From Azolla caroliniana (lineage: Eukaryota > Plantae > Polypodiophyta), in contig JBHGNT010000001.1 of assembly GCA_043228905.1 (NCBI GenBank), forward strand, positions 27,652,001-27,716,000: a stretch of DNA of 64,000 nt. The letters run 5' to 3'. Positions within the stretch are counted from its first letter, which is position 1, and each line of letters opens with the position of its first letter. The position numbers and the translations under genes are program-made. Shown here piece by piece: positions 13,457-58,365 of this stretch. The notes beneath the pieces were generated by a model, which saw only the letters and a list, made by a program, of their open reading frames with translations, did no database searches and was not told the DNA's origin.

Positions 13457-14316
13457 TGTTGAACCAGTCTTTGGTAGCGGTCGAGAGTGCCATAGGGCTT
13501 GTGTCTTCTTCGTCGACTGCACCACTACAGTTGCCTGTTGATGCTTGGGTGATTGCTTGTGCTTGTCCGGAAGCTTGTGTGCTCTATTGTGCTCTCAAAA
13601 GCCTTCTCTCGTGAAATGACAATCCTTCGTTTTTTCGGAAGTTTTGTGCCCCCATTTCTATCAGCCGTCACTTCTTGAATCCCGCGCATGCACGTCGTGT
13701 ACCATAATAGTGTGAGTGCACTGCTTGGTGCGCTTTAAATGGTTGTCATCGCGTATTTTCATGTTGACCGCTCATCATATCGAATAATATCAAAAAAAAA
13801 TTACATACGGCTTGAAGTACCTGGCCGTACTGGGTGTCGTTAAGTTAGTCTTTAGTGCATGACTACACCAGCTCTGTTGTCGACGGAAGTTCACCGGTTA
13901 CCTCTTCTATTTCCGGAACATGTTGTTCCTCCGGTTGTTTGAATGGGTTCTTCGGCATCGGGCCTTTGTATGGTTTTAACCGAAAATCGTTTATCCATTT
14001 TTCCAATAACTTGCCAGCTAGCGTGCCCAGTTGGTAAGATCCCTCGAATTCTCTTGTAACCTAGAACGGTCCGGTACATCAGAACCACAACTTTCCCAGC
14101 ATGTTGCCCATCCGAGTCTGGAACACTAACACGGGCTTGCCAATGCCGAAGTCCTTTTTGTTGTCGTGCCTATGCTGGTCCATAAAAGCTTTTCGTCTGT
14201 GTTGTTCGAGTTCTAGTTGCAACACGCTAGATATATGGCGTTCCTCTAGTTCGTACAATATTGCCAACCAGATTTTTTCGGACTCCTTGCTTAACCGCTC
14301 TCGGGCCTGTATCCGT

Positions 14317-15352
14317 TGTCGTGAAGATTCGTCACTACACGCGGATCGTGAGGCGGAACCGCAAGGGTTCTGAACTGGAAGGATTCGAAGTTGCACTAGC
14401 TTTCGCGAGAAAGGATTTAAGGTAGATTGAGAGAGAGAGAAATTGAGATTAAACGCTTGACTTTAGATTGAGGGAGATTGAAATGAGAGAGAGATTAAGA
14501 TTGAACTTTTAACCTTTAGATTTAAGAATCAAGATATATCATCAATTGGATTACAAGTTTCTTATTTGATCATCCAAAATTTTTACATTAGTTCTTTCAT
14601 CTTTTTCCTCCCCTCTTTTATAGATGCCCTCATGCATTTGAGGGTACAAGACATGCATAAAATGCATGTTTGCCATTTGGCGCTCATGTATTACATGTGG
14701 TGCATGATAACCACGTCACTCATTTAAGGTCTCGTGTATGAGAATTTACATGTAAATCTATAATGACAAAAATATTATTTTATGAAAATGTCTTGGCTTA
14801 GTGATAAAGCCTATAGACTCTCAACTTGGAGGTACAAGGTTCAAATCCACACTTGCACTCTTTATGTATATATGTATATATATACATATATTTATTTATT
14901 TATTTATATATCTATTCGGTCGCCGGATGCCGGATGCCGCCGGATCTCGGTTCTGTCGCCGGTTGCCGGATCCTGGTTGCCGGTTGCCGTCCGATCGCCG
15001 GCTCCGTCATCGGTCTGGGTTTGGTTGGCCAAAACCTTTGCAAGTAGCCAGGCCATACCCATTCATCTAATAGCTTAGTTCAAGTCACCTTGACCTCTCT
15101 ATGCTCCACACATAGACACAAAGATAATAGCTTTTGCTCTACCTTATATATGGTGAGATCCTTATTTCCTGTCTATGTGGGATATCTCACAATTTTATTT
15201 TTTTCTTTGTCTTTACAAACTTCCAACCCACATAAGTTGACACTTAGATGTATGTTTCTTATGTAGTAAAGTGTATCCGAAAGCTCTTCAAGACCTCCAT
15301 CCTTTTGTAGTTTTATGTGATTTTCACACCATTGCCGAAAATCTTCACGACA
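14317..15352 (-). mobile_element. Solo LTR (1036 bp), family S1
   Basis: TGTCGTGAAGATT..AATCTTCACGACA termini; TSD CCGT at 14313-14316 and 15353-15356; inverted homologue of 50929-51952 and 24294-25413. Confidence 0.85.
14794..14848 (+). promoter_or_regulatory. tRNA-like Pol III A-box/B-box cassette inside a solo LTR
   Basis: TGGCTTAGTGA at 14794 and GGTTCAAATCC at 14838; starts 44 nt apart. Confidence 0.6.
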
Positions 15353-18134
15353 CCGTAAACTGGGAATTTGGAACTCCATAGGCATGATCGCCTCCAATCT
15401 AAATGCCAATCAGAATGGTGTTGCCCAGATACTCGTTTTATAAGCCCATAATGCGTTGTGTAGCTTGGCGTCCCATAATGCGTTTACAATTTTCCGGAGA
15501 ATGTTTTGTAGCATCTTGTTCGTGGACTCCGCTAATTTGTTCGCATGCGTGTAGTATGGTGTATTGCGTTTATGAACTACCGTATAGAATGTCGTTAGGC
15601 TTTCCACCACATGCCCAAGGAATGTCCTCTCAGGTCGTTGATCAGCTTGATCGGACATTCGTACCGGCACCATATATATTCATAAAGAAATTTTGTCGTT
15701 GATGTTGCGGTGTTGTCCCGGAGCGTTTTTGCTTCCACCCATTTCGTACAATAGTCGGTGGGTACAATAATGTACCAGTTACCCGTGCACATTCCTCGTG
15801 GCTTAAATGGCCCCACAAAATCTAATCCCCATTTTTTAAAAGGTTATAGTGGCAATACGGGTTGATGGGGCATCCGAGCCTGCTCTGTGGGTTGGTCCAA
15901 CCGCTACAGAGATCACATTCTTTGCAGAATCAGATAGCGTATTTGAGAGTTGTCGGCCACCATAACCCACTTCTTTGAATCTTCTAGGCGGTAGCGTCTC
16001 CGGCATAGTGGCCACCGGCAACTCCGCAATGAGCTTCTCGTAGAATTGCTTCCTTTTCATCGCTCCTTACCACGCGCCGCCAGATCCTGTCGGCACCTTT
16101 GTGGTACAATGTGTCCTGTATCAAACAGAAATGGTGACCTTGGACTGCCAATCGTTTCCATTCATCCCGGCTTAGCTCTTCCTAAGGTAGTCTGGTACTT
16201 AGGAATTGATGCATGTCGGTGAGCCATTTGTCCTCGCCGACCATCGTCTCATCTACCACCATTGTCGGGGTAAACTTGAATAGCTCGGCATCCGGGAACT
16301 CATCTCGGATTGCTTCCCCTGCTTCTCCGTATTCCAACCGGCTCAAGTAATCTGCCACCACGTGTTGTATTCCCGATCAATGGTATATTTTGAACTCGAA
16401 CTCCTGCATCAGCAGTGTCCACCTTGCTAATTTGCCTGTTAATGATGCCTTGGACACCAAATAAATTAGTGTGGAGCGGTCCACATGGAACGAAAATTTA
16501 CTTGGTGACGTTGTAGACAATTCCTAGTGATTATCTTTTTGTTGTCAAGTAATTTCGTTCGGCTTTAGAGAGTTTCCGGCTTGCATAGTACACTGGACCA
16601 TACCACTTAGGTTTGGTAAGCTTCATTAGAACACTCTCGATTGCTATATCCGATGCGTCCACGAACACGTGAAAATCCTTTGTCCAATTCGGAGGTTGCA
16701 CCATCGGGACTTGCGACAACATCACTTATAACGCTTTATACGCCATTTCTTCTTGCTCTGTCCATTGAAAAGGCACGTGGTGTACGACTGCATGTAGTGG
16801 AGTTGCGAAGTCCACTAAGTAACGAAGCATCCGGTTGTGCCACCGGATTTGACCCAAGAACCGACTCAATGCCTTGGCGTTTGTTGGCGCCGATGCTTTT
16901 AAGATGGCAGACACCTTGTCTGCATCCACAACGATTCCGTCATTACTAATGATGTGCCCGAGTAGCGTGCTGCCTGTTACCCCAAAAACACATTTTGCCA
17001 GATTCAGGCTCAGTCGGGATCCCCGACACTTCTCTAAACACATCATCTAGAGGTGGTTCAGATGTTCTTCCTTCCGACTATAAACTACGAAATTGTCCAA
17101 AAAGACCTGCATAAATGTCAAGATGTATTCCCCGAATATTTCCATGATAATCCTCTAGAAAGTTGCCAGTGCCATCTTCAGTCTGAACATCATAACCACC
17201 ATGCTGAACACTCCCCATTCTGTGACGAATGCCGTTTTTTCTTGATCCGCCAAGAACTATAGCTTTGAACCCGTCCAAGAAACTATATACCTCATGACCA
17301 GCTACCGCATCTAACACCCCGTCCGTGAATGGCAGCGGGAACGTGTCTGTCACCGTGGCAACATTCAGCTTTCGGTAGTCAACACAGACCCATATATTTC
17401 TGTTTTTCTTCGACACGACTACGATTGGACTGAGCCATGTTGCTTGTTTTACTGGTTGGATAAAACCGACTCTTAGTAGTTTATCAATTTCTTCCTTGAC
17501 CTTTGCTACATAATTGGGATTCATTCGGTAACATCGCTGCGCTACCGGCTTCGCGTCCTTGCTGAGGTGGATCTGATACTGGTACAGTTGGGGATCCAAC
17601 CCTCGCATATCTTCGTATGACCAAGCGAACACATTTCGAATTCTTTGAGTAGTTCAATTGTTGCCTTTTTCTCATCCGGGGGCATTTCCTTTGCCACATT
17701 CATTGGTTTTGGTGCTTCACCGGTCCCGAGGTCCACCTCTTCTAGCTGGGATGCTTTTACTCGTTGAGACATGACCATTTCTTTGATCCCCAGGGTATCG
17801 CATGTTCGTTGGTTGATCACGTTCACACCGAAACCTCCATCCACAATTGTTCTGGGTATCTCCCTTCCTTTGATAATAACCGTAATCCCCAGACTACTAG
17901 TGTCTGCTACTGCCAACCCTTCCTCCGGATTGGAGAAGAATGCTCGTGCTAGGTTTGGGTTTTGTGATGTGAACATCAATTTAAGTCCTTTCGTAAATCG
18001 GGGAACTAACTGCAATAGGCAGCCTAGAGGCAACATGATTTGACATTGTTGTAACACCTACTAGGTGGGGTCATTGTCTGTGGTCTCTACTGGTTCTTCC
18101 AGAGGCTTCATCTATTCTTGTACTTCGGCCACGT

Positions 18135-21100
18135 TGTCATCAAGAAAACCGGCCAAAAGCAGAATCGGCGAAGTAGGGCGCATGAACCGGCCCTACACTT
18201 TCCCACACCAATTAATACCTTGTACATAACTAGGAGTAGGACGATGGGTGTAGATAGACTAGATGTGACGCATTGAATGTCTAGGAAATCAAAGAGTATC
18301 TTTGTTCGAAAGGACAGAGAATAAATTGATGAAAACGAGGGTGCAACGGCCTGCTTCGACGACCTATAAAAGGGAAGGAAGAAGGCGGATGAAGGGATCA
18401 CGTTTTAGGAGCGAGGACGAAGTGCTGCCAGACTGGGACCGAGCTCTCTCCTCCATCATTCGTCGTTCTCTGCAGGATATCAGACTGAGTTCCCTCTGCT
18501 TCATGGACAACCCGTGTGCTTCCGGCAGAGGCTCCACAGTGCAATAGGGGTTGTGTGTGCGCGTGAACGTCGTGTGTGTGTGTTCGCTTGAGTTGGGTCC
18601 GTTGTCGGCTTGCCGGTTGTAATCGTTATGGATTTAGTAATTAAGACTTTGTTCTCTCTCTCTCTCTTCCTCCCTCTGTGTTTCTGCAAGCTGCTCTCTC
18701 TCTCTTTGTTCTCACGCTCCTTGGTTCAAGACCCCTGCGGTCCCGCCTCTTTTCACACATGAAGAGCCTAATAACTCGACATATTTGGTGAACCCGACAT
18801 GAATTAGGAGGCAAAGGAGTGAAGGATGAGGGGATCCAAGCTTGTTGAAGCTATGGCCGTAGCCGTCGACCGACTAGTGAGCACTCGCGAGGGAACGGGT
18901 GCCCTTGACAGGGCCATTGAGTCGATCGTCGGCACCATAGGTCGAATTCGGTGGGAAGAATGCCACGAGCTACTTGGAGGCCTACCGGGCTGAAATGATC
19001 ATGAGGGATATCTTGGTGGACAGGCGGCTGTCTGGATTCCCTCAGGTGGTGATACTGAGCATCCACGCAAAGGTGCTCGAGGTGCTGGCCGGATGCCAGA
19101 CTTGTGAGGAGTTCAAGCTGCGGCTCCTCGAGATGAATGGGTTCGATGACTCACTTCGGCTATCGAAGCGAGACTTCATGGCGTGGGTTGAGAGCCCTGG
19201 GAAGGGGAGGAACACGTCGGCGCTCCTCCAGGAGTTCGAGAAACGATTCGCATGGTTGTCAACGCTGGACCGGACCGTGCTCGACACAAGCCGGGTACTA
19301 CTATTCGTCAAGTCGGTGGACGCCATGGACCGGGAGAAGGTGGGTCTCCTGTTGGAAACGGATGAAGGGCTCACGGCAGACTGGGCCATGGTAAGGCCGG
19401 TCCCGACGAGGGAGCTCGAGGAGCCGGTGTCGGTACTGGCTAGGAAGGAAGAATCTTGGAGTTGGCTTGAGACGAGCTCAACCCCGAGCGGAGTGGTCAA
19501 AGGTTCCTCCGGAGGCGCGGCTCTAGAAGAGCTGTCGTAGATGGTGCGAGATCTCCAAATCGCACAGGCCCTGAGGGACACCGGCGAACAATCTCGTGAC
19601 CGAAGGCCGGAGGCGGGGCAGCGGTGCATGTGGTGCGACGCGGTCGACCACATCCGGAAAGAATGTGCGGATTTCGCCGAGGCACTCAAGACCAACGTGG
19701 TGTATGTCTAGAACGGGCGGGTGCACGCGAGCGAGACCCGGAAAGCCCTAGAGTTGAATACGGGGCGCGACGGAATGAAGCGGTTGATGGAAGAGGCTGT
19801 GGCACGACATACAGAGGCCGTTAACTACTCGGCATTGACGGGAATCTGGGTTGGGGGCGATGAGGCCCGAAAAGCGAAGGACTCCAGATTCTAGCCGTTG
19901 GTGCTAGAGGGTCTCTCCGGAGTACAACTGAAGAAGGAAGAGGCAGACCGCGCGGAACAACGGATCCAGGAGGTCACCGGATGGGACGACCCGGTGGAAG
20001 AAAAGACTGGCTTTGTGGCAGCCGCATGCCAGGACTACGAGGTTCTGGTAGGAGACAAGCGCGCGGGAAAGGCTAGAGGGGGCCGCCCCTCGTAGTAGTA
20101 CGAGACCCAGTTCGGACTGAAGCCAAATGAGGCCGCCAACGCTGGTGCACCGGAGAAGAAGAAGCAGGCCGGTTTCTGGCTGAGCACCGAAATCGAACGA
20201 ACAACGGACCTGGGGAAGGTCCTGGAAGAGAGAATTCTCGACATCAAGGTCGAGTTGTCATTACGGGAGGTGTTGGGAATCGCCAAGAAGGAGTTCCATG
20301 ACTCCATCGTGGACTTGGTGAAGCGGAAGAGGCTCTCGACGGAACCGGAACCGGAGAGGCCGATGGAAGTGCGGACGACGCACTTAGAAGACACGGCCCT
20401 AGAGGATGAGTTGGCGGAAAGCCACTACGCGAAGCCGCATTGGGCTAGGGCCAGTACGGAAACCCCTATTCGGATCGGCGATGTCCAGGAGCCAGTGGTG
20501 GCATTGGTAGACCACGGTTTGGAGATCAACCTGATGTCCATGGACTTCTATAAAAAGGGTAAATGGCCGATCAACACCAAGCATGGGTGGAAGATACGCG
20601 CGGCGACGCGCGCTACAGAGGAGCTGCATGGTGCGTGCCCGAACGTATGCGTGAAGATCGGCGACGTCAAGATAGATCAACATTTCTTCATGCAGGAGAC
20701 TTCCTCGCACCCGGTAATTCTCGGCGAACCGCACATTACGGCCGCACGCATGGAGACGAATGTACTGGACAACGGTTCGGCGTATGCGCGCGTCAAGAGC
20801 CAAGACGGTCGACATTCCGTCCAATTCATGACAGTGCGACCCAACCACGAGCGAAACCGCGAGACCCTCGACGACGACAACCGAGGGGATTTTTAGAGAG
20901 GGCTATCAAGGCGTGGGGCCGCGATAGTCCGGACACCCCAGAAGAACCCCACACATGTATTATAGGTAGGAAATTTTGGCTCTCTGAAAATAGAGGTTAT
21001 ACGTTAACCGACATCAGTAGTCAGGAGAGGAAGCGAGCGGAGAGACGACTTAGGGTGTGTGGAGTCCTCTCCCCTGACGAAGAAATTAGCGGCACCGTGG

Positions 21101-23070
21101 AGGCGGTCTCTTTTGACGACACCTTGGGTGAATTATGAAAGGTGGTCGGTGAAGGCCTTAGCGAAGACCGGACCGTTTCGGTTAGCTCGATGGGAATGTA
21201 CGAAGTCATCGCGGACTTCGGGGAGAGGATCTGGTCGGATCAAATGGCCCGCGTGGATACGAAGTATAAGACTGTGGACCGGAAGGTGAGGTTAGTTGTG
21301 GCACCCTTGCCGGAGGGCAGCGGAGAGCAGATAAAAGGGGTCGTGTTGGACCCAAGTTTACGGAATCCAACCGGCATAGGACACCGGTTCACCAACATAA
21401 TGCTATGAGAGCTCAAGGTTGGTGGGGGTGGCTTTGTATTGCCAGAAGAGGAGGACCGGTTTCGGAGGATGCTCGGAAGGCACGGGAAGGCCTTTGCATT
21501 CTCGCCGGAGGAGATCGAGTGTGTAGACCCGACAATCGTCGAGCCAATGGTGATCTTCACGGTACCGCATGTGCCGTGGAATCTCAAATCGATTCCGGTA
21601 CCCAGAGCTCACATCCCGAAGCTGATGGAGCTGCTGAAGTAGAAGGTGGAAATGGGCATCCTCGAACCGTTGAGTGCCCCATACTCGAAGCGGTGGTTCA
21701 CGGTGCCATAGAAGAACGACACGTTGCGCTTCATACAAGACCTGCAACCAGTCAACAAGGTGATCATCCGTAACGCAAGAATCGGGCCGACCATAGATGA
21801 GTTCGCGGAGGCCTTCACCGGAAGGTCGATCTATTCGGTCGGTGACTTATACTCGGGGTATGACCAGTTCCAACTAGCCGTAGAGAGCAGGGACATCACG
21901 ACAATGCGGACTCCTCTCGGCTTGGTGTGGATGTGTACCCTACCGCAAGGAGGAACGAATTTGGTGGTGCACATGGTGAACGCAATGAACAAGGTGCTGA
22001 GGGACTACATCCTGGACATCACTATGTCGTTCCTAGACGACGTATCGATAAAAGGGTGTTTGGTGGAGGATGCAGACGAAACGGTCGGGCCGGACGGATG
22101 CCGGAGGTTCGTCGTGAACCACATCAATGACTACGATAAGGTTCTGCAGAGGCTCAAGAGCGCGCGACTCACCTTCTCTGGAGAGAAATCAGCGTTCGGG
22201 CAAAACAGAGATCCTGGTAGTCGGACACCTGTGCGGGCCCTATGGCCGGAAACCATCCCCAGCAAAGGTAGAAGCCATCTCTGTGATGAAGGACGATTGC
22301 GGGTCGGTTACGGAGGTCCGCAGATTCTTGGGTGCGTGCGTGTTCTACCACATCTGGATTCCGCACTACACACATGTCGCGGAACTGCTCTACGGGCTAT
22401 TGAAGAAAGAGCGTATGTTCAAGTGGAGGACGGAGCACACAAAGTCGGTCCGGAGACTGAAGGAGGCACTTGCTGCGGCACCGGCTCTTTGGAAAGCGGT
22501 TTACGGCAAGGAAGTCCCCATCTATGTGACGGTGGACACGAGTCCGACCAAGATCGGGTGGGTGATCAATCAGGAGGACAAAGACGGCGTATGGTTCCTG
22601 ATCCGGTTCGGGGCGAAGGTATTGAGCGAGCGACAACGAGGATACGCCCAAGTTAAGCGTGAGCTGTGGGGTATCGTTTCGGCAGTTAAGGCCGACAAAG
22701 ACTATCTGATCGGGACAGAAGTAATCATTGAGACGGATTGCCTACCGATTCTCGGTATGGTTTTCGAAGGCGCGACGCCGGACCTGGCAATGCTCCGGTG
22801 GATAGCGTACGTCAAGCCCCTGAATCCGGAAATACGACATATTTCCGGAAAGGACAATGCCATGGCCAACATGCTTTCGAGGGCGCGGTTCAGCGACGAG
22901 GACGACATGGTTTCGGAAGACGAAGAAGTCGGCGAGGACTTATTCGGATCAACTAGCGTGACAACAAGAAAGGGGAGCACTCCGGCACTAAACGAATTCG
23001 ACAAGAGCGAATACGACGGAGAGTGGCTCTGAATTGGGAGGTTCTTACGGACGATGATGCCGGACGCGAT
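18135..23070 (+). mobile_element. Trp-primed gypsy element, decayed and 3'-truncated before the integrase core
   Basis: 5' LTR 18135-18781 preceded by ACGT; PBS TGGTGAACCCGACATGAA at 18786; gag-PR-RT-RH remnants with many stops; homology ends ~23070. Confidence 0.88.
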
Positions 23071-24279: not shown

Positions 24280-24293
24280 GTCGTGGGTTCCGT

Positions 24294-25413
24294 TGTCGTG
24301 AAGATTTTCGGCAACGGTGTGAAAATTGCATGGAATGTAAAAAATCAAGTGTGGTTCTTCACACACAATATGAAACAATAATAGTGAAGATACTATTTTA
24401 TATTAGTTTAATATCTTGGTACGAAAAGATGGATGTCGTCAAGAGCTTCCGAATGCACTTTACTACATTTGAAATGGACAACTAAATGTCAAGTTATGTG
24501 AGTGTGAAGTTTGAGAAAAAGAAGAGAAAAACAAAACTATGAGATAGGACAAATCAAGATCCCACAGTATATAAGCAGAGCCAGAACTTATTGCTTTTTG
24601 TCTATGTGTGGAGCACAAAATGTTCTTGGGCTAAACTATTCGGATGGATGGATGTGGCTTAACTACGCGTAATGGTTTTGGAGAACCGGGACTAGGACTA
24701 GACGGACGACGACGGAACCGGAACAGACCGGACCAGACGGAATGCGGATCGAACCGGTAGGGACTGTACAGACGGATTGGTCGGGTCAGTCGGATAGGTT
24801 GATCGCACGGTGTCTTGAAGATTTCGGTGTGAAACGAACAATAAATAAATAAATCGTCTATAGGTTCCGTCAGCTCATTAGAGGTCGACTGAAGGTGTAA
24901 TATGCAGTTAAACATTTGTAAAATACAACAGAAAAACCTAGTAATATTTTGTGCATTGAAAGGGATGCAAGCAAGGCTTGAACCTTGCACATCCAAGAAA
25001 AGAGGCAATAAACTTACCACTAAGCCAAGTTATTTCTTTAAATTATATTTTTGTCATTATACTTCTCATACATGAGAGCTTGAATGAGTGACATGGTTAT
25101 CATGCAACACATGCAATGCGTGAGTGCCAAATGGCAAACATGCATCACATGCATGTCTTGCACCCTCACATGCATCATATGCATGGGGGTATCTATAAAA
25201 GAGTGGATGAAAAAGAAAAATGGAGCTATGTATTATCAAAGAATTTAATAATAATAAAAAGAAAATTTGTTATCCAATTGGTGATGTATTAATCTTCTTT
25301 CTCTCTCTCTCTCCATGTCAATCTTTCTCTCCTCATATCAATCTCTCTCAATCCATCTAGGACCCCGGTGGTTCCGCCTCACAATCCACACATAGTGACG
25401 GATTTTCACGACA
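24294..25413 (+). mobile_element. Solo LTR (1120 bp), family S1, diverged variant
   Basis: TGTCGTGAAGATTTTCGG..GATTTTCACGACA termini; TSD CCGT/CTGT; TATA at ~25194; U5 motif GGTTCCGCCTC. Confidence 0.85.
24974..25027 (-). promoter_or_regulatory. tRNA-like Pol III A/B-box cassette inside a solo LTR
   Basis: Minus strand TGGCTTAGTGG ... GGTTCAAGCCT; starts 43 nt apart. Confidence 0.6.
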
Positions 25414-25924
25414 CTGTGGGGGTGGAATTTTCGATCGGTGCAGCTGTATCCTTTACCAATCCGCGACCATCCTTACGATCTAGTCTTTGGAGCTTAGGCT
25501 TGGAACTGCCACGGTTCGGCTGTTGTTCCTTCTATTAGACTATGTTTTGTGCTTCCTTGGAATCAACGCGATTGTCCTACTGCGTTGCTTGTCGCGGTCC
25601 TTCTTTAGTGGTGGAAAGGTTCGGCTCTTTCTCCCATTCCGTTGTCGCGAACTTTCGCGCGCGCGTGTTAGTTGGGCGGGACCACGGGGGTCTCGGACTA
25701 GGGAGTACTCAAGGGATAGAGAAGACCCGAGGTTTGCTTTATGACAATACTACTTCCCCACCCCTTCCTGAGCAAGGTCTCGTTCCCCTTTTGTTTTGTG
25801 AGGCCGGTGGCTCTCGTTGATCACGACTCGTCGACCTTCCGAGATCACCTTACGATCCAAGTGACCAAACGAGTACAAGCAAGATGAGCACGCAACATGA
25901 ACACACAAGGGGACGATAACACAG

Positions 25925-44793: not shown

Positions 44794-47700
44794 TTACACA
44801 GAGGCGTCGAACTTCCGGTACCATTGCCGGGGAGCCTGCTTCAGTCCGTAAAGACTCTTCTTCAACCGGCATACCAGGTGCTCCTTCCCTTTCTTCTCGA
44901 ATCCTTCCGGTTGCTGCATGTAGATCTCTTCTTCGAGGTCACCGTGAAGGAATGCCGTCTTCACGTCCATCTGTTCTACCTCGAGGTCCATGCTTGCCGC
45001 TATGCTCAGCACCGTCCGGATGGAGGTCATCTTCACTACCGGGGCAAATATCTCGTCGAAATCGACGCCCTTCTTTTGCTGGAACCCCTTCACCACGATC
45101 CTGGCTTTGTATCTCGGGGGGTTTCCGGCATCTCCCGGTTTCAGCTTGAACACCCACTTGTTTCGTAGTGCCCGCTTTCCTTTTGGCAATTCCACAAGTT
45201 CATATGTGTGGTTCTCATGCAGGGAATCCATCTCGTCCTGCATGGCACTCAACCACCTGCGGCTCTGGGTGTCATGCTTTGCTTCTTCAAAGCTCTCCGG
45301 CTCCCCCTCGTCGGTTAGCAGCACGTGCTCTGGTTCCGGAAATCTCCGGGGGGCCCTTCTCTCTCTTAGAGGATATCTCCGTTCCGGAGCTTCGGTAACC
45401 GGTTCTTCCGATTCTTCTTCATCCGAATCCATTTCGGGATCGGGGCCGGTTCCGGTATCATTTTCATCTTCTTCGGCCGGTTCTGTTTCTTCATAGTCTT
45501 CGGCCGGATCCTCGAGTGTTAACCGGTCCCTTGCCGGTCGGGACTGCTCCTCGTAGAGTTGATTCTCACCGGTCGACTTGGAGCTCTTCATCTTCTTCTC
45601 CGACTCCCAGTCGGCGAGTGTCTTGTCCTCCATGAAGATGATGTCTTGACTCCTGAATATCTTCTTGTCGACCGGGTCCCATACTCGGTAGCCAAACTCG
45701 TCGTCGCCGTACCCGAGGAATATGCATGGCCGGGTCTTTGGATCTAGCTTTCCTCTCCGGTCCTTTGCCACATGCACGTATGCGAGACACCCGAACACCT
45801 TCAGATGCCGGTAGGATACTTCCCTACCGGTCCACACTCTCTGCGGCGTGTCTCCGTCCAGAGGTACTGAGGGTGATCTGTTTATCACGTATGTCGCCGT
45901 CGACATTGCCTCAGCCCAAAACCCCTTGGGTAATTCCGCATGCGCCAGCATACTCCGGACCCTCTCCATTATGGTCCGGTTCATCCTCTCGGCCAACCCG
46001 TTCAGTTCCGGCGTCTTCGGCACAGTAAACTCGAGCCGGATTCCCTTCGAGCGACAGTACTCCGCGAACTGCCCCCGGTATTCCCCTCCGTTATCCGCTC
46101 GTATCGCTTTCAGCTTGTTGCCGGATTCTCTTTCCATTCTCGCGTGGAGTTCTTTGAAGACGGACAACACTTGGTCCTTTGTCTTCAACGGTGCCGTCCA
46201 CAGCTTCCGGCTGTGATCATCAATGAATGTCACGAAGTACTGGGCTCCGCCATGTGACTTCGTTTCTACCTGACACACATCAGTGTGTACCAACTCCAAT
46301 GGTACACTACGTCTCGTCGGTGGCCTTGAGTGGAAGGAGGTCCGGTTTTGCTTACCGGCCAGGCAGTCGGTGCACTTCTCCAGGTGCACATGCTTCACTG
46401 GAATAAGGTTGTCTTCTGCAAGCCTCTTCATCCCCTTCTCACTCATGTGGCACAGTCTTTTGTGCCACAGCTCACCGGCAGTATCGGCTGCCACATTCAG
46501 CTCTTCCGGACATAACCGGGCATTCATCAGGTACAGTGTGTTGACTTTCCGGGCCCGAGCCACTATCAGGCTCCCCTTGCTGAACTTCATTACGCCGTTC
46601 CGGATGCTACCTGTGTAGCCTTCATCGTCTAGCCTCCCGGCCGAGATCAGGTTCAATCGGACCTCCGGAACGTGTCGCACATCCTTCAGCAGCATCTTGC
46701 ATCCGGTTGATGTCATCAGCCACACGTCTCCTATGCCGGCAATCCGGCATGTGCCTTCATTTCCCATCCGGACACAGCCGTGCTCACCGGCTGTGTAGGA
46801 TGAGAAGTATTTCTTCTCCGGGGTCAGGTGGAACGACGCTCCGGAATCGACCACCCAGGTCATCTCTTCACCGGCAAGGTTCAGCTCCCACTCTTCGGTA
46901 ATGAGCATTATCTCTTCTTCACTTGCCGCGAGTGCCGTCGTTCCTTTCCGGTCCTGCCCTCGCCGATCCGGACCTCTCCGGTCCGTGGCTCCCCGGTATG
47001 CACCGTTTCTCTCCGGTGACTTCTTCGAATCGGTGTCGTCGGCTACGTTGTCCTTTCGGTAATGCCGACAATTCTTCCGGAAGTGCCCCGGCTTCCCACA
47101 GTGGAAGCACGTGGGCCTTCCTCTTGACTGCGACCGGGTCCCCGACTTCTCCCGTCTTTGCGGACTCCGGTTCCATTGTCTTCCCCGCTCCGATTCGGTA
47201 AGCAGCGCCTTCGAGTCGGAGGCCGGTTCTTTATCTCTCCGACGCGCTTCTTCGTTCAAAATACTTGTCTTTACCGTTTGTAGGGACAAGTTATCTTCTG
47301 TGCAGGAGGTGCTGAGTGTCACCACCAAGTTCTCCCAGCTTTCCGGCAATGTACACATCAGAATGATGGCTTGCATTGCATCCTCCAACGGGAACTTGAT
47401 CGCCGCAAGCTGGTTCACGAATCCCATGAACGTGCTCACGTGTTCCACCATATTCTCGCCGTCCCGGTACTTGAGGTTCACTATCTTCCTCATCAGGGAG
47501 GTCCGGTTCAATGCATTCTTCCTCTCGTAGAGGCCCGACAGCTTCTTCCACATCTCATATGCGTTGGTGTCGTTCGCCACATGTTGCAGAACACTTACAT
47601 CTACATATTGCTGGATCGTCGCTACGGCTTTCCGGTTCAGGAGCTTCCACTCCGACTCTATTACCCCCTTGGGTATCTCGGCATTGTCGATCGGTTCGTA

Positions 47701-47805
47701 CAGGTCTCGGACGATGAGGAGGTCTTCCATCTTTATCTTCCAGTCGACGTAGTTCTGTGAGTTCAACACCATCATGCCCGGAGGCCCACTACCGCCGCCT
47801 TCCAT
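44794..47805 (-). CDS. gag-pol: Copia gag-PR-INT-partial RT polyprotein, truncated before YVDD
   Basis: 1003-aa ORF with CFHCGKPGHFRKNC, VVDSGAS and the integrase core; ends at QAPRQWYRKFD. Confidence 0.9.
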   Translation of the reverse strand: MEGGGSGPPGMMVLNSQNYVDWKIKMEDLLIVRDLYEPIDNAEIPKGVIESEWKLLNRKAVATIQQYVDVSVLQHVANDTNAYEMWKKLSGLYERKNALNRTSLMRKIVNLKYRDGENMVEHVSTFMGFVNQLAAIKFPLEDAMQAIILMCTLPESWENLVVTLSTSCTEDNLSLQTVKTSILNEEARRRDKEPASDSKALLTESERGRQWNRSPQRREKSGTRSQSRGRPTCFHCGKPGHFRKNCRHYRKDNVADDTDSKKSPERNGAYRGATDRRGPDRRGQDRKGTTALAASEEEIMLITEEWELNLAGEEMTWVVDSGASFHLTPEKKYFSSYTAGEHGCVRMGNEGTCRIAGIGDVWLMTSTGCKMLLKDVRHVPEVRLNLISAGRLDDEGYTGSIRNGVMKFSKGSLIVARARKVNTLYLMNARLCPEELNVAADTAGELWHKRLCHMSEKGMKRLAEDNLIPVKHVHLEKCTDCLAGKQNRTSFHSRPPTRRSVPLELVHTDVCQVETKSHGGAQYFVTFIDDHSRKLWTAPLKTKDQVLSVFKELHARMERESGNKLKAIRADNGGEYRGQFAEYCRSKGIRLEFTVPKTPELNGLAERMNRTIMERVRSMLAHAELPKGFWAEAMSTATYVINRSPSVPLDGDTPQRVWTGREVSYRHLKVFGCLAYVHVAKDRRGKLDPKTRPCIFLGYGDDEFGYRVWDPVDKKIFRSQDIIFMEDKTLADWESEKKMKSSKSTGENQLYEEQSRPARDRLTLEDPAEDYEETEPAEEDENDTGTGPDPEMDSDEEESEEPVTEAPERRYPLRERRAPRRFPEPEHVLLTDEGEPESFEEAKHDTQSRRWLSAMQDEMDSLHENHTYELVELPKGKRALRNKWVFKLKPGDAGNPPRYKARIVVKGFQQKKGVDFDEIFAPVVKMTSIRTVLSIAASMDLEVEQMDVKTAFLHGDLEEEIYMQQPEGFEKKGKEHLVCRLKKSLYGLKQAPRQWYRKFDASV

Positions 47806-48328
47806 TTTCTGTGTTACCGTGCTCTGATACCAGTTTGTAAGGATTTGACGCTATCAAATCCTTCGCCTCTCGGCCACAACCGAGACAACACGGATCAATG
47901 CAGCAGAAAATAATAAAAAACAAAGACACAGAGAGACGAATACACAGGGTATAACGTGGAAAACCCTAAACGGAAAAAAAACCACGGGAGTGCACGACTC
48001 CAACTATCACTATACACTGGAATATACAATGGCGAGCTGCAAGGCGACGACCTTGAGCTCGCTGTTCTCGCCACAGGCGGCTGTATTACACAGAGGCGTC
48101 GACCTCTTCGTTTCTCTCTCTCTCTCTCTCTCTCTCTCGCGGCTGCTCTCACTTCGCTCCCTCTAAGTGGAAAACAGAAAAAAAAGCAACAACAATAAAC
48201 TGTTTGCCCTAAGTCATATTTATACACATATGACTTTCGGGCTATTTACAAATATAGCCTCAAGGGCTCTTGGCAAACATATTCACAAATATGTCCCCGC
48301 ATCCGGATCTCCCTCCGGGTACATTCGT

Positions 48329-48512
48329 CATCCGGCTCCGTAACCGGGGTCTTTAGCATCCGGCTCCGTAGCCGGGGTATTCATCATCCGGCTCCGTAGC
48401 CGGGGTCTTCATCATCCGGCTCCGTAGCCGGGGTCTTCGTCATCCGGCTCCGTAGCCGGGGTCTTTATCATCCGGCTCCGTAGCCAGGGTCTTCGTCATC
48501 CGGCTCCGTAAC
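48329..48512. repeat. 28-bp tandem repeat (6 units plus a partial) in copia 2 U3
   Basis: CATCCGGCTCCGTA starts at 48329, 48357, 48385, 48413, 48441, 48469 and 48497. Confidence 0.92.
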
Positions 48513-50928
48513 CGCAACCGGGCTTGCCATCATTCATCTCCGGACATCCCATCCGGAGGGACCGAAATCCCAACAAGCTGTGGCAAGGGCTTCCTTCATC
48601 TTCTGAACAGACTCCATATGCTCGCCTCTCCACTCGAATTTTCGCCCCTTTTTCAGCAACCCGTATAACGGCTCCGCGACGTGAGCGTAATGCGGGATCC
48701 ATATGTGGTAGAACGCACATGCTCCCAAGAACCTCCGAACCTCCATGACTGAGCTACAGTCGTCCTTCATCGCGGAGATGGCTTCTACCTTAGCCGGAGA
48801 CGGTTTCCGGCCGTACGACCCGCATAGATGTCCGACGACCACGATCTCTGCTTGCCCGAAGGCCGATTTTCCCTCGAAGAAGGTGAGCCTCGCGCTCTCC
48901 AACCTCTACAACACCTTCTCGCAATCATCGATGTGCGTCGCCACGAATTTCCGGCATCCGTCTGGTCCGATCGTCTCGTCCCTTTCCTCCACCGTGAATC
49001 CCTTGATCGGGATGTCGTCCAAAAATGGCATGGTGATGTCTGGGATACAATCCCTCAGCACTTTGTTCATTGCGTTCACCATGTGAGCCATCGAGTAGTC
49101 CCGCCTTGCGGTAGGGTACACATCCGTACTAGGCCGAGAGGAGTTCGCATTGTCGTGATGTCTCTGCTCTCTACGACAAGCTGGAACTGATCGTACCCCG
49201 AGTAGAGATCACCGACCGAGTAAATCGACCTTCCGGCGAAGGTCCGATTCCCGCGTTTCGAATGGTCACGTTGTTAATCGGCTGCAGGTCTTGAATAAAG
49301 CGTAGCGTGCCGTCCTTCTTCGGCATGGTAAACCACCGATTCGAGTATGGGGCACTCGATGGTTCGAGGATTTCCATCTCGACCTTTTGCTTTAACAGCT
49401 CCATCAGCTTCGGGATGTGAGATCTGGGTACTGGAATCGGTTTGAGACTCCACGGCACATGCGGTATCGTGAATATCACCATCGGTTCCACGACTGTCGG
49501 GTCTACGCACCCGATCTCCTCCGGTGAGAATGCGAAAGCCTTCCCGTGCCTTCCAAGCATTCCCTGAAAACGGTCCTCTTCCGCCTGCAGTAGGAAGCCG
49601 CCCCCACCAATTTTGAGCTCGTGTAGCGTTATGTCGGTGAACGTGTGTCCTATGCGGGCCGAATTTCGTAAACTCGGGTCCGACGCACCCCCTTTTATTC
49701 GCAACTTGCTGCCCTTCGGCAAGGGAGCCGCGACTGGCCTCACCTTCCGGTCCACAGTCTTGTACCTCATGTCCACCCGGGCCGTCCGATCCGACTCGAG
49801 TCCTCTACTGAAGTCCGCGATGACTTCGTACATCTTTTCTGAACATACCGGAATCGTCCGGTCCTCTTTAAGGACTCCTCCGACTACCTCCCGCAGCTCC
49901 CCCAAGGTATCGACGAAAGAGACCGCCTCCACGGCTCCGTTGATTCCTTCTCCGAGGTTGAGGACGCCACATGCCCGAAGTCGCTCCTCTGCCCTTCTCT
50001 TCTTCCAGCCAACAACGTCGACTATCGTACACCCTCCGTTGTCGGAGAACCAAAATTCCCTACTTATAGCACGGGTCTTCTTCGCTATCATACACTTGTG
50101 GGGTTTTCCCAGAGTGTCCGGACTATCGCAGCCCCACGCCTTGATAGCCCTCTCTAAAAATCTTCCCGGCTTTCGCCCCTGAGGGTCTCGCGGTTCCTCT
50201 CATGGTTCGGTCTCACCATTAGGAACTGGACCGAGTGACGCCCATCCTGGCTCTTGACCCTTGCATAGGCCGAGCCGTTGTCCAGCACCTTGGTCTCCAT
50301 CCGTGCTGTCGTAATGTACGGTTCTCCTAGTATAACCGGATGTGAGGACGTCTCCTGCACGAAGAAGTGCTGGTCAATCTCGACATCGCCGATCTTTACT
50401 CGTACGTTCGGGCAGGCTCCATGCAGTTCTTCGGTGGCACGCGTCGCCGCCCGTATTATCCACCCGTGCTTGGTGTTGATCAGCCATTTTTCCTTCTTAT
50501 AGAAGTCCATGGACATCAAATTGATTTCTGAACCATGGTCCACCAACGCCACCACCGGTTCATGAACATCTCCAATCTTCACGGGGGTCTCCGTGGTCGC
50601 TCTAGCCCAGTGCGGCCTCGAATAGTGGCTCTCCGCCAACTCGTCTTCCAGCGCCATGTCCTCTATGTGCGTTGTCCGCACCTCCACCGACTTCTCCGGT
50701 TCTGTCTCCGTCGACAACCTCTTCCTCTTCACCAAGTCTACGATGGAGTCGTGGAACTCCTTCTTGGCGATCCCGAGCACTTCCCTCAGCGATAGTTCCA
50801 CCTTGTTGTCGAGGATTCGTTCTTCCATGACCTTTCGCAGGTCCGTGGATCTTTCGATTTCTGTGCCCAGCCGGTACCCGCCCTTCTTGGGATTATCCTG
50901 GGCGCCGGATGCACAGGCCTCATTCCGT

Positions 50929-51952
50929 TGTCGTGAAGATTTTCGGCAATAGTGTGAAAATCCCATAAAACGTACGAAATCGAGTATGAATCACATAGTA
51001 CAATAATTGTGAAGATAACATTTTAAATAAATTTAATATCTAAGTACAAAATGATGGAGGTTTCGAATGCACTTTATTACACGAGAAACGGAAACCTAAA
51101 TGTCAAGATATGAGGGTATAAAGTTTGTGAAAAGAAAAGAGAAAATTGTGAGATATCCCACATAGGCACGACAAATACGGCTCTCATCATATATAAGGTG
51201 GAGCAAAAGATATTATCTTTGTGTCTATGTGTGGAGCATAGAGAGTTCAAGGTAACTTGAACTAAGAGTGGAGGTGGGCTAGCTACTCGTAAAGGGTTTT
51301 GGCCAACCAAAACCGGACCGATGATGGAGCCGGTGATCCGGCGCCAGTGAGACACCGACATCCGACGGCAATCCGGCGACGGCATCCGGCGACACAACGG
51401 TAACCGGTGACATCCGATGAACCGGCGACTAGATAAATAAATATATAAATATATATACATATATACATGTACAAGGAGGGCAAGGAAGGATTCGAACCTT
51501 GCACCTCCAAGTTAGGAATCAATTGGCTTACCATTAAGCCATGCTATTTAGTTAAAATTATATTTCTATCATTGTACTTTTACATGTAAATTCTCATACA
51601 TGAGAGCTAAAATGGCAAACATGCAATTTATGTATGTCTTGTACCCTCACATGCATCATATGCATGAGAGCATCTATAAAAGAAGGAAGGGGGAGGAGAA
51701 AAAACACGGTTTTTTTTTGTTATGAAATTAAGAAGAAGAAATTCGTTATCAAATTGATGGTGTAACTTGTTTCTTAAATCCAAAGATAAAACTTCAATCA
51801 ATCTTTCTCAATCGTTTAATCTCAACTTCTCTCTTTCCCAATCTATCTTAAGTACTTTCTCGCCAAAGCTTGTATCGACTTTGAATCCTTCCGGTCCAGA
51901 ACCTCGGCGGTTCCGCCTCACGATCCGCGCGTAGTGACGGATCTTCACCACA
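50929..51952 (+). mobile_element. Solo LTR (1024 bp), family S1
   Basis: TSD CCGT at 50925-50928 and 51953-51956; TATA at 51675. Confidence 0.87.
51488..51541 (-). promoter_or_regulatory. tRNA-like Pol III A/B-box cassette (best preserved copy)
   Basis: Minus strand TGGCTTAATGG and GGTTCGAATCC; D-arm GCTT/AAGC and T-arm AAGG/CCTT can pair. Confidence 0.68.
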
Positions 51953-54015
51953 CCGTCTTTGCCCGAATCGAGTTTCATATCGCTGCGAGGGCCCGGCCCC
52001 TCCGGTTTTCCCTACTCACTTGTCCTCCACCAGAGCCTCGTAGTTTTGACAAGCGGCTTCGACGAAGCTCGTCTTTTCTTCCACCGGGTCACTCCACCTG
52101 GTTACCTCCTGAACCCGTTTTTCCGCGCGGTCCACCTCTTCTTTCCTCAGCCGTGCGCCGGCGAGCCCTTCTAGCATCGTCGGCCAGAACCCGACTTTGT
52201 TCGTCTTCGGGGCCTCGCCACCTCCGACCCGAATACCAGCTGACGCCGAGTAGTGGACGGTCTCTGCGTGACGAGCCGCCGCCTCCTCCATCAGCCTTTT
52301 CATACCCCCTCGCCCGACGTTCAGGTTCAGGGCCCTTCGGGTCTCGCTGGCGTGCACCCGACCGTTCCACAGGTACACCACGTTGCTTCTCATCGCCTCG
52401 ACGAAGTCCCCGCAGTCCTTCCGGATGTGCCCAACCGCATCACACCACATGCACCTGTTTTCAGCCAGAGGTCGTCGGTCACGGGCCTATTCGCCACCAT
52501 CCCTCCGTGCCTGGGCGATCTGGAGATCCTTTACCATCCGCGTAAGCTCCTCTAGAGCTGCTCCCCCGGACGAGCCATTGACCATACCGGTTGAAGCCGA
52601 CCCGGTCTCGAGCCAATCTCGGGTCTCTTCCCTTCGCGTTGGTGGTGTTGGCTCGAGCTTCTTTGCTGCGACAGAGCCCGCCCCTATCGATCCTTTGTCA
52701 GCCCATTCCCGCCGTTTGTCGAAACGGCCACAAACCCTTTTCACTACGGCCCAGTCGGCCGTCAGCCCGTCATCAGTCTCCAATAGGAGGCCTACCTGCT
52801 CTCGATCCCGCTCGTCAACCGACTTAACAAACAATAGGACACAGCTTGTGTCCAGAATAGTTCGGTCAAGCACCGAGAGGTGCGCGAAGCGTTCCTCAAA
52901 CTCCCGAAGGAGCACTGACGCGTTCCTTCCTTTGTCGGGGGTCTCCACCCACTCCATGAAGTCCCGCTTTGAAAGTCGAAGTGCATCTTCAAGCCCGTAT
53001 CTTTCGAGGAGCCGACCTTCGAACTCCTCCCAGGTCCGGCTCTCGGCCCGTACCTCACCACTCGAGGGAATCCGGCTAGACGCCTCTCTTCCGGAATGTC
53101 CCTCATTACCATCTCAGCCCGGTAGGACGCCAAGTAGCTCGTGGCATCCTTCCCACTAAACCGGCCGATCGTACCGACAACCGCCTCGATAGCCCTATCA
53201 AGGGCGTCGGTGCCTTCGCAAACACTCACTATACGGTCCACTGCCAAAGCCATGGCTTCTGCGAGGTCCGACCCCCTCATCTTCTACTCCTCTGCCGCCT
53301 GTTCACGTCGGGTTCACCAAAGATGTCGCGTTGTTACGTGCGTGCGTGGAGAACAAGGCGGGACCACTGGGGTCTTGGACCGAGGAATAGGTGAGGAAGC
53401 GAAAGGAGAGAGAGAGAGAGACACGCTCTCACACGTATAGACAAAGAAGCGCGCGGGAACGCAACCCACCAACACAAGAGACACAAGTTGAGCAGGAGAT
53501 AGGGTACAAGGACGCGTAAATAAATATATGTATGCATACGACTCGAACGGTTACAGCCGATTAGGTCGACGAGACGGGTGCCGACGCCTGATCACCCACG
53601 CACACAGGGGAGCAAGATGGAGATTTTGTCGGAAGCACACGGGCGTTCCACGGAGCAGAATCAGCCTTTCGAGAACCTGCACCAAGAAAGCTATGGAGAA
53701 CGACAGAGGAGAAGAGCTCGGTCCCAGTCCGACAACACTTCGTCCCCTCTAGCGCGCTATATCCCCTCTCTCCCTCGTCTCCCTCTCCTTTATAGCTCAA
53801 GGAGGGAGACCGTTTCACCCGTTTACATCACATTAATTCTCTGTCCTTTCAGACAGAGATACTCCTCGATTTACCTTACAGAATATTGCTACCTAGGATT
53901 TAACCTTTGCGCCTACCTATCTACTTTACGACAAGGGACGTGCCCACGTGTAAGGACTGGTTCACACACATTATACACGGTTTGCGCCTGGGGACGGTTT
54001 TCTTCACGACAGCGT

Positions 54016-55828: not shown

Positions 55829-57488
55829 TGTCAAGATTCGAACTCTTGACACGACCATGTTATAATATAGTATCATGGGTTAACTAATATATCTAGTACA
55901 CAGTTATGTATGTAATTGGTCCTTATTGTTTTGCTAGCATCATGTGCATAGTTGCTCCCTTATAGTATTTACACTTGGCACATGCATGCATACCTACATG
56001 CTCTATTGTAGATTCACATGCGTGCAACAAGTATGCATGCCATGTAGTATAAATAGAGGAGTTCACCTTGAAGGAATTCAAGGTGAACAACACCAGTTAT
56101 GGAGTCTTTCCGTTAATACTACTCATCCATTTATCTATCTTCTTTCTTGTCTCTTGAGCTTATGATCTATCCGTGACAATTTGTTCATCTTCCCATCCTC
56201 ATAGCTCTCCCTCTCATAAGCCATAGCTATGTCCGATTCAACTAGTGAGTTAGGCCTAATAATGGTAGCCTTACGACAACTCCAGTTTGAAAATGAAGCT
56301 CTTCGAAATTCTTTACAAGAACTTCAAGTCGGTGCCTCCCTATCCTCACAACCCCCGAAGCCTAGTCTCCCACAGCAACCTAGCCTAGAGCCCGATCTTC
56401 TACCAGCATCTAGCCTAGCATCGTCGCATTTTCTTGAGCCTAAGGTTATCCTCCCAGAAAAATTTGATGGAACGAGGTCGCGTTTCCAAGGATTCATCAA
56501 CCAAGTTCAACTTATCATTCGGCTAAACCTCAACGCTATGGAGATGGTCTTCGACAAGTCGGCCTTGTGGGCACCCTTCTCTCCGGTCCGACCCAAGCTT
56601 GGTTTGCACCATTGGTAGAAACCTCTTCACCTCTATTGGAGGACTTTCCCGCCTTCCTCGCCGAGTTAGAGGCCACATTTGGAGAGACGGACTGACGACG
56701 TACAACTCTTAACAAGATTTATGCACTTGAACAAGGTTCGCGTGCAATTTCGGTCTATGCTTCAGAATTTCGACAACTAGCATGCGACGTCAATTGGGAT
56801 GATCAAGCTTTAGTTGATCACTTTCGGCGCGGCCTTCGATGCAATGTCAAGATCTTCTCTTAAACTTTCCGGAGCCCACCTTGTTATCCCAAGCGATTTC
56901 ATAAGCAGTCCATTGTGACAATCGTCTACTCGAATTTCGCCAGGAAGAGCACCGTACTTGGGTTCCACCTCCTTCACTTCCACGACACGCCCCGGTCATA
57001 CAACCCCAACCATACCCCCCACCGACTGCGTCACACTCCCCTACTTTGGCAGATGCTCTTGTCCCCATGGAAATTGATCAAGCCCGATTTCGGCCATTGA
57101 CTGATGCCAAACGACAATTTCAGCGGGCTAATGGTTTGTGCATGTATTGTGGCGCCTCCGGTCATGTCATTCGCCATTTTCCTAGGAGTAATCGCCCACA
57201 ATTCCATCGAGCTAATGGACCCCACCATCCAGAAAACGACATCGTTCGGTCGCAGTAGGAGCCATGCAACTGGACATCTCCCCTTACCCACATTCTCTTG
57301 GTTCCATTGCCGAACCATCAGGCAATTTCACATTGGAGGTATGGCTTTCATTTAACTCTAGTTCCATTCAATCCGTTGCTTTACTTGATTCTAGGGCATC
57401 TTCTTGCTTCATCGACATCGCGTTTGCCCAAGCACATGGCATACCTGTCGTTGGCCTCTCAAAACCCATTCCCGTTGAAGCCATCGAC
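55829..57488 (+). mobile_element. Decayed chromovirus 2 (Tcn1-like): 5' LTR, gag and start of protease
   Basis: LTR at 55829-56178 (TGTCA..TGACA); gag remnants PEKFDGTRSRF, PMEID and CMYCGASGH; protease LLDSRASSCFID interrupted at 57492. Confidence 0.87.
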
Positions 57489-58365
57489 GCGTTGTCGAGA
57501 TATTACGCAAGTGCGTGTGGAATCGAGGCGGGACCGCGGGGGTCTCGAACCAAAGAGCAAGCGTGGGAGGAGAAAGAGAGAGAACCGGCTACGCAGGACC
57601 GGGGATACACAGGGACACGGCCCTTCAGCACGGAGAACGCGAACAGAGACCGACACAGACAGATGCGAATGACTTAATATGTATATTAAGAAAAATGGCT
57701 AACACTACTACAACCCTCGATGGGGCACAGGTTGGTTACAACCGAACAGGCCGGCGAACAGATGCCGATGCCTGCTCGCTTCGACGCACAAAACGGGCAA
57801 AGGGGGGGGGGTAGCAGGTTGGAGGTGCTGCCGGAAGCACTCGGGCGTTCCTCGAAACAGCGCGAGCCTCCTCCGAACCCTGCACAGAAAGCTGTGGAGC
57901 TCAAGAAGGAAGGAAACAGAGAGAGAGCGACGTCCAGAAACGGTCCGACAGCACTTCGTCCTCTCTGCGCGAGATACCTGCAACAGCTCTTTCCCACTCC
58001 TTATATAGGCTGACGAGCAGGCCGTCGCGTCAGCTTTTATTCCCTGTCCCTTTTGGACAGGGATCCGCTCCGTTTTTCACGCTTCCGCGTAGTTACGCCA
58101 CCGGCTTGTACAATTCGCGCGCGCGACCGAAAAGACTGTTCGCGCGGTCTTTGTCTCCACTTGAGTTAGGGCCCGTTCCTGCCGATTATCCTCCTAATTC
58201 GTTTCTATGTACAACTTGGAGCGTGCGCGCGTGAAGAACCGGTTCCCACGCCTTGGTGCGCCGATTCCGCCTATGGACGGTTTTCTTCACGACATCCGCC
58301 CCCACCTAACCGCGCATCCTCCGGTATGCGCCAAGAGAGTTGGAACGGAGAAAACCGGCCCGTCT

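What the first reader, a model, noticed from the sequence alone, without database searches (positions are those of the whole stretch)
14313..57492. CpG-centred 4-bp target sites at all nine insertions of the Trp-primed group
Seen: the plus-strand flanks are CCGT (14313), ACGT (18131, one side only), CCGT/CTGT (24290), CCGT (25639), CCGG (27537), GCGT (34911), GCGT (35102), CCGT (50925) and GCGT (57489, one side only). All nine have CG at positions 2-3. The 4-bp length is confirmed by the empty site GGACGCGTAAAT in the sister LTR (~53511-53522) and by restored host reading frames at 14312/15357 and 34910/54016. The copia and chromovirus TSDs here are 5 bp (TGTTG, TCGGC, AGCTG) with no shared motif. 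Known: most plant LTR elements make 5-bp TSDs with weak sequence preference. Inference: this chromodomain-less integrase selects CpG, possibly methyl-CpG. That could be a chromodomain-independent route into methylated TE nests.
Basis: partly seen in the sequence, partly recalled or inferred. Interest (0 to 1): 0.8.

Follow-up and report, generated by a model that had tools for sequence, protein, structure and literature searches.

The report
CpG-targeting Phygy-type plant retrotransposons
These jumping genes insert at CG dinucleotides far more often than chance and likely belong to the Phygy group of non-seed-plant retrotransposons, for which this habit was published in 2019; whether DNA methylation guides them is untested.

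Summary
All nine flanks have CG at positions 2-3; seven are two-sided 4-bp duplications, one decayed to CTGT on one side. It holds outside the window: 43 of 48 outer LTR flanks in related contigs are NCGN, against 3.6% CG in those flanks and 7 of 53 chance matches. A Riccia relative has ACGA/ACGA and the same type of primer site.

It is not new. Neumann et al. 2019 report that Phygy elements make 4-bp NCGN duplications (100% of 186), mostly use tRNA-Trp and lack a chromodomain. These elements meet every such feature I could test; a tree with reference Phygy sequences was not possible.

The motif is really VCGB (41 of 43), the foamy-virus VYRB pattern narrowed to CG, so the integrase itself likely makes the choice. 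The methyl-CpG idea is neither supported nor excluded: the DNA shows CpG decay, but nothing shows the targets were methylated before insertion. The scan noted a similar NCGN habit before, in a likely fungal genome (e1-10582392).

The parts
14313..15356 (-). Solo LTR A (14317-15352) with TSD CCGT/CCGT, in the integrase gene of another gypsy element
18131..23068 (+). Element B: flank ACGT, 5' LTR 18135-18781, primer site at 18786, decayed gag-pol breaking off after RNase H; no 3' end found
24290..25417 (+). Solo LTR C (24294-25413), TSD CCGT/CTGT (one CpG-to-TpG change)
25639..27403 (-). Solo-LTR-like element D (25643-27399), TSD CCGT/CCGT, holds a 6 x 105-bp array; group assignment by ends only
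27537..32927 (+). Element E (27541-32923), TSD CCGG/CCGG, primer site at 28305, only a decayed gag remnant; N gap 32130-32229
34911..54015 (-). Element F (34915-54011; about 7.05 kb without nested inserts), TSD GCGT/GCGT, 5' LTR 53324-54011, primer site at 53319
35102..42088 (+). Element G (35106-42084, 6979 bp) inside the 3' LTR of F, TSD GCGT/GCGT, primer site at 35755, polypurine tract before 41440
50925..51956 (+). Solo LTR H (50929-51952) inside the gag of F, TSD CCGT/CCGT
53510..53521 (+). Empty sister site GGACGCGTAAAT for the G insertion (single GCGT at 53514-53517)
57489..64000 (-). Element I: flank GCGT, 3' LTR 57493-58294, open pol (58366-61884; RT-RH-integrase, no chromodomain, no second RNase H) and gag-protease region (61845-63974, DUF4100); 5' end beyond the window
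58369..59580 (-). Integrase of element I (H2C2 zinc finger, DDE core, SH3-like C-terminal domain with a WFGPY motif)

Best explanation
These are chromodomain-less Ty3/gypsy LTR retrotransposons, likely of the Phygy lineage, that insert at CG-centred 4-bp sites, and their integrase likely picks the CG step itself, by sequence and bendability, without needing methylation. Shown: 4-bp duplications, CG at the centre, T avoided at the first and A at the last position (VCGB), no chromodomain, the same habit in related contigs and in one Riccia element. Inferred: the two active sites cut 4 bp apart and must unstack the central base step, as in the foamy-virus intasome (target VYRB). Bending alone would also accept TA, CA and TG, which are each about twice as common as CG in the flanks, so base-specific contacts must narrow YR to CG. 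The candidate is the conserved loop of the C-terminal domain (Q1094, H1095, R1099, K1100 of Pol), by analogy with foamy-virus Arg329; this is a hypothesis. Nesting in other elements would follow from the CG richness of transposon DNA plus selection against insertions in genes.
For: 9 of 9 sites in the window. 43 of 48 outer flanks NCGN against 7 of 53 chance matches (Fisher p 1.5e-15) and 3.6% flank background; TG 7.3%, CA 6.9%, TA 6.3% in the same flanks. VCGB in 41 of 43 CG sites against 43% expected, p 2e-13. Raw reads of a related organism: of about 1690 reads at the LTR end, 761 were laid on through the GCGT flank with first base A 474, C 130, G 131, T 26, and 769 broke off with a polypurine-tract consensus. 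Riccia element L001: 9927 bp, ACGA/ACGA, primer site of the same type. Phygy: 4 bp 100%, NCGN, tRNA-Trp 81%, no extra domain. Foamy-virus consensus VYRB with an unstacked central YR, and base choice largely independent of chromatin (PMC4422553). Best structure matches of the integrase model: foamy-virus target capture complex 4e7k (E 2.4e-17) and Ty3 7q5b (TM 0.56). Purified ZAM integrase binds CGCGCg directly (PMC2527525 abstract).
Against: No test of methylation dependence was possible, so 'without needing methylation' rests on analogy. CpG sites between LTR pairs mutate 3.3 times faster than other C/G sites (21 of 375 against 19 of 1115), so the targets lie in likely methylated DNA, and at least 19 of 43 outside flanks are transposon DNA; both fit the methyl-CpG rival. 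No reference Phygy sequence could be placed in the tree. Elements F and G (about 7.0 kb) are shorter than the published Phygy range of 7656-9968 bp. The Riccia site ACGA breaks VCGB. The C-terminal loop was not aligned to foamy-virus Arg329 (the sequence match covers residues 13-245 only) and the model has pTM 0.54.
Confidence: 0.68

Rival explanations
1. The integrase prefers methylated CpG (direct readout of 5-methylcytosine, or easier unstacking of the methylated step), giving a chromodomain-free route into silenced transposon nests.
For: All nine window insertions lie in or among other transposons. CpG decay in LTR pairs, in one TSD (CCGT/CTGT) and in 4 of the 5 non-CG flanks (CA, CA, TG, TA). 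Phygy reported enriched at centromeres of a liverwort (PMC12885004 passage) and often nested in Tcn1 in Physcomitrella (PMC6911290 passage). A 1992 paper on CpG methylation and retroviral integration in vitro exists (title only).
Against: Decay can follow insertion. The window was a transposon cluster to begin with. CpG observed/expected in flanks is flat, 0.73-0.83, from 5 to 1000 bp. No methyl-binding domain in Pol at E up to 1. CG-centred targets occur in Drosophila ZAM and Hydra Ginger1; that Drosophila has next to no CpG methylation is recalled.
Confidence: 0.2
2. A host CpG-binding protein (methyl-CpG reader, or a reader of unmethylated CpG) tethers the integration complex and sets the site.
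For: Tethering by host factors is the rule for Ty1, Ty3, Ty5, MLV and HIV (PMC5408687 passage).
Against: A tether sets a region or a distance; here the CG is at the exact centre of the cut in 43 of 48 cases, with no second strong motif out to 12 bp.
Confidence: 0.08
3. Chance or a boundary artefact: CG-rich region, or LTR ends called one or two bases off.
For: The window is CG-rich (7.2%, observed/expected 1.05) and the motif was chosen after the fact.
Against: Seven two-sided duplications, an empty sister site, colinear host frames, and the same result in 48 distinct outside flanks chosen by contig source, not by flank.
Confidence: 0.01

Closest known systems
Phygy lineage, non-chromovirus Ty3/gypsy of Physcomitrella patens (Neumann et al. 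2019, PMC6317226)
   Same: 4-bp TSD, NCGN, Trp-type primer site, no chromodomain, no extra RNase H, coding region fills the interior.
   Different: Described as species-specific in 2019; relatives here are named from Riccia, Calypogeia and Adiantum. F and G are about 0.6 kb below the published size range. VCGB edge bias not stated in the passages I read. Tree membership not tested.
TatI lineage (same paper)
   Same: 4-bp TSD (100% of 4) and tRNA-Trp (75%).
   Different: TatI carries an archaeal-type RNase H; none found here. No NCGN preference listed.
Prototype foamy virus and other 4-bp-stagger intasomes (PMC4422553)
   Same: Target VYRB, T and A avoided at the edges, flexible central step; top structure match of the integrase model.
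   Different: Any YR step and a weak preference, against about 90% CG here; 21% identity.
Drosophila ZAM/Tirant subgroup (PMC2527525, PMC5408687)
   Same: LTR retrotransposon integrase with a CG-centred palindromic target, bound directly in vitro.
   Different: Target CGCGCg/CGCG, errantivirus lineage, AGT-type LTR ends.
Ginger1 DNA transposons (PMC2836005)
   Same: Gypsy-like integrase with GPY/F motif, 4-bp TSD CCGG 75% or CCGT/ACGG 24%.
   Different: DNA transposons with long terminal inverted repeats and no reverse transcriptase.

Membership tests
Phygy | Ty3/gypsy order RT-RH-INT, without chromodomain | tested here: met
   Pfam scans of Pol at E up to 1: RT, RNase H, H2C2, rve, weak SH3; no Chromo, whereas the chromovirus at 7469-11053 hits it at 1e-13
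Phygy | 4-bp TSD | tested here: met
   7 of 7 two-ended elements; Riccia relative
Phygy | NCGN target motif | tested here: met
   9 of 9 in the window; 43 of 48 outside
Phygy | Primer site complementary to tRNA-Trp | tested here: inconclusive
   A conserved site TGGTGAACCCGAC(G/A)TGAA follows the LTR in 4 window elements, 7 contigs and (one change) Riccia. That it matches plant tRNA-Trp is recalled; no tRNA gene was found to confirm it (0 of 31 loci; window)
Phygy | Short element, polyprotein spans the interior, no extra ORF, no archaeal RNase H | tested here: met
   G: LTR-gag-pol-LTR with no room for more; no second RNase H
Phygy | Length 7656-9968 bp (descriptive range, one species) | tested here: inconclusive
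   G 6979 bp and F about 7050 bp fall below; the Riccia relative, 9927 bp, falls inside
Phygy | Groups with reference Phygy RT-RH-INT sequences in a tree (the primary definition) | not testable with these tools
   The paper's FASTA and element table are too large to read; no Physcomitrella-named protein among the 240 listed hits or 10 clusters. The RT tree shows only one clade with Riccia, Calypogeia and Adiantum relatives, far from the window's chromovirus and host gypsy
TatI | Archaeal-type RNase H in Pol | tested here: not met
Chromovirus | C-terminal chromodomain | tested here: not met
Methyl-CpG-directed integration | Site choice depends on 5-methylcytosine | not testable with these tools
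   Indirect signs are ambiguous

The most novel reading that the evidence does not exclude
The Phygy-type integrase reads 5-methyl-CpG directly in its target site, through the conserved C-terminal loop, and so finds silenced chromatin without a chromodomain, across liverworts, ferns and perhaps fungi: a retrotransposon integrase that is itself a methylation reader.
Probability: 0.15. Interest if true: 0.75.

Novelty: new member of a known kind. Interest (0 to 1): 0.22.

Why it matters
The CG preference itself is in print for Phygy, though in the text I read only as one sentence and one table cell, with no mechanism. This window adds modest points: the habit extends beyond Physcomitrella (one Riccia element, many related contigs), the motif is VCGB, and an element with open gag and pol frames is at hand for biochemistry. 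A near-strict CpG integrase would be a clean system for asking how an intasome reads the central base step and whether methylation changes that. If it does, it would explain how chromodomain-less elements gather in heterochromatin; if not, CpG targeting still gives the host a ready methylation site at each junction.

Tried and rejected
Whole-genome TSD count: no genome held; replaced by a contig scan (stopped at 118 of about 1000 stretches) and by reads. Fern check: the Adiantum locus returned no DNA. Reference Phygy sequences: supplement too large; two homologue searches and one cluster look-up gave no Physcomitrella name; a paper search for RLG3 + patens + retrotransposon + methylation found nothing. 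tRNA identity of the primer site: 31 viral-contig matches held no tRNA gene; the paper search returned nothing relevant in the 10 listed. Ylt1 target sites, sought as a comparison in a yeast: not given in the passages read. GingerRoot: 6-bp TSD, GC-rich only, not relevant. Flank CpG gradient as a methylation test: flat, uninformative. Glu924, aligned with the foamy-virus Ala three residues after the second catalytic Asp (Ala188; numbering offset recalled) and acidic in 95 of 95 rows, was considered as the CG reader and set aside because that residue contacts bases outside the duplication. 5-bp or other TSD lengths rejected. L034 (TGGA) is likely an internal junction (its flank matches window 31310-31406) but was kept in the count as a miss. 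Look-ups of earlier findings by sequence and by relatives gave nothing.

Full report
The window is a stack of nested LTR retrotransposons (52% GC, CpG observed/expected 1.05): two copia elements, one chromovirus, two decayed gypsy hosts and nine insertions of one further gypsy group. No whole genome is held. The host was not identified; named relatives of the group's Pol come from the liverworts Riccia (up to 64% over Pol) and Calypogeia and the fern Adiantum (75% over the RT), so a non-seed land plant is likely.

Observation. Seven elements have both ends and the only flush repeat is 4 bp; six pairs are perfect and one is CCGT/CTGT. The empty sister site carries a single GCGT at 53514-53517. 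Host flanks aligned separately to a sister host copy are exactly colinear at the F site and in frame at the A site. At 7.2% CG, 9 of 9 has p about 5e-11. Four elements show the primer site in the window; the solo LTRs A, C and H are linked to the group by contigs in which that LTR family has the same polypurine tract or primer site (L007, L053, L119); D is linked only by its ends.

Test outside the window. A scan of metagenome contigs for the LTR start returned 118 loci of about 1000. 65 lie on one series of assemblies and hold 67 matches: 19 follow the polypurine tract and 48 are outer flanks, all distinct. 43 of 48 are NCGN. The five misses are CTAT, CCAT, ACAT, CTGG and TGGA; four are what CpG decay gives, and the fifth is likely an internal junction. 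CG makes up 3.6% of dinucleotides in those flanks; the 53 matches on other contigs, taken as chance matches, have CG in 7 (Fisher p 1.5e-15). These contigs may come from one or a few related plants, so they widen the number of sites more than the number of species. Raw reads from a related organism agree: of about 1690 reads at the LTR end, 769 break off with a polypurine-tract consensus and 761 are laid on through the GCGT flank, first base A 474, C 130, G 131, T 26. Reads are carried on only if the next bases fit, so I take 45% as a floor for CG-flanked ends; the table lists no differences at the C and G among the rows shown (13 rows hidden). At another LTR end, 774 loose ends of low agreement (0.36) have a consensus that begins ACGT. 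One Riccia sorocarpa element (L001, 8012-17938, LTRs 99.8% alike) has ACGA on both sides and the same kind of primer site.

What it is. Pol has RT, RNase H and integrase, no chromodomain and no second RNase H; Gag hits DUF4100. Neumann et al. [quoted passage not shown] Jedlicka et al. (PMC6911290, passages; author name recalled) also report mostly 4-bp TSDs for Phygy and GC-rich centres in 4-bp TSDs. The elements here meet each feature I could test, apart from being about 0.6 kb short. That the primer site matches tRNA-Trp is recalled, not shown. TatI shares the 4-bp TSD and the Trp primer but has an archaeal RNase H that is absent here. The defining tree test could not be run; my RT tree of 31 rows shows one clade with the liverwort and fern relatives, far from the window's chromovirus and host gypsy. 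So: works like Phygy, very likely is Phygy, membership not proven.

How it likely works. Among the CG sites, 41 of 43 avoid T at the first and A at the last position, against 43% expected; all nine window sites do too. That is the foamy-virus consensus VYRB, explained by a sharp bend that unstacks the central step between active sites 4 bp apart, with base choice largely independent of chromatin (PMC4422553, passages). The integrase's closest solved relatives are foamy-virus and Ty3 integrases by sequence and by fold (model pLDDT 75.8, pTM 0.54; 4e7k and 7q5b). Bending alone does not explain it, since TA, CA and TG are each more common than CG in the flanks, so base-specific readout is inferred. 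In 95 aligned integrases (the query and 94 of 120 hits that cover the domain) the C-terminal loop keeps Q (89), H (89), R/K (89) and K (95); by analogy with foamy-virus Arg329 it is the candidate reader, untested. Direct CG-type readout has precedent: ZAM integrase binds CGCGCg in vitro (PMC2527525, abstract) and Ginger1 makes CCGG/CCGT duplications (PMC2836005, passages).

Methylation. Transitions between LTR pairs fall at 21 of 375 CpG positions against 19 of 1115 other C/G positions (p 3e-4), so this DNA is likely CpG-methylated. That says nothing about the state of a site before insertion. At least 19 of 43 outside flanks are transposon DNA, using only the window's elements as a library and with no baseline; CpG content is flat with distance. 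Phygy is reported enriched at liverwort centromeres (PMC12885004, passages). My paper searches listed no study that tests methylation dependence for Phygy; the library lacks most subscription journals, and a 1992 paper on CpG methylation and retroviral integration was seen as a title only. I put direct methyl-CpG preference at about 0.15-0.2.

Verdict. Real and strong, but a further member of a lineage whose NCGN preference is published. Interest 0.22; 0.75 if the integrase proves to read methyl-CpG.

Noticed in passing
window 18782-18785, 28301-28304, 35752-35754, 53320-53323; L001 9977-9980; L007, L010: The spacer between the 5' LTR and the primer site is 3-5 nt (TATT, TTT, TCTT, TCT, TCTTT, TAAG), longer than the usual 2 nt (recalled), which would mean a longer end for integrase to trim.
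   Followed up: partly
window 25918-26547: Solo-LTR-like element D carries six copies of a 105-bp unit, 91% alike.
   Followed up: no
window 27541-32923: Element E has young LTRs (98% over the part before the N gap) but only a decayed gag remnant and no pol: likely non-autonomous, still with a CG-centred TSD.
   Followed up: partly
window 14317-15352, 24294-25413, 50929-51952: This LTR family has longer terminal inverted repeats than the others (12 bp, TGTCGTGAAGAT, perfect in A) and could be mistaken for a DNA transposon; L007, L053 and L119 show it is an LTR.
   Followed up: yes
window 58366-61884 (Pol residue 924): An acidic residue (E 80, D 15 of 95 rows) sits where retroviral integrases have a small neutral one (foamy-virus Ala188, HIV Ser119).
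   Followed up: partly
window 18135-23068: Element B breaks off after RNase H with no integrase or 3' LTR, followed by unrelated sequence.
   Followed up: no
window 44544-48575: The second copia lacks the end of its RT/RNase H and most of one LTR, yet keeps the 5-bp TSD AGCTG.
   Followed up: no
window 5822-5826 and 11496-11500: The chromovirus (LTRs identical) has a 5-bp TSD, TCGGC, that also holds a CG at 2-3; a single case, likely chance.
   Followed up: no
window 32130-32229: A 100-N assembly gap inside the 3' LTR of E, with about 225 bp repeated on both sides of it.
   Followed up: no
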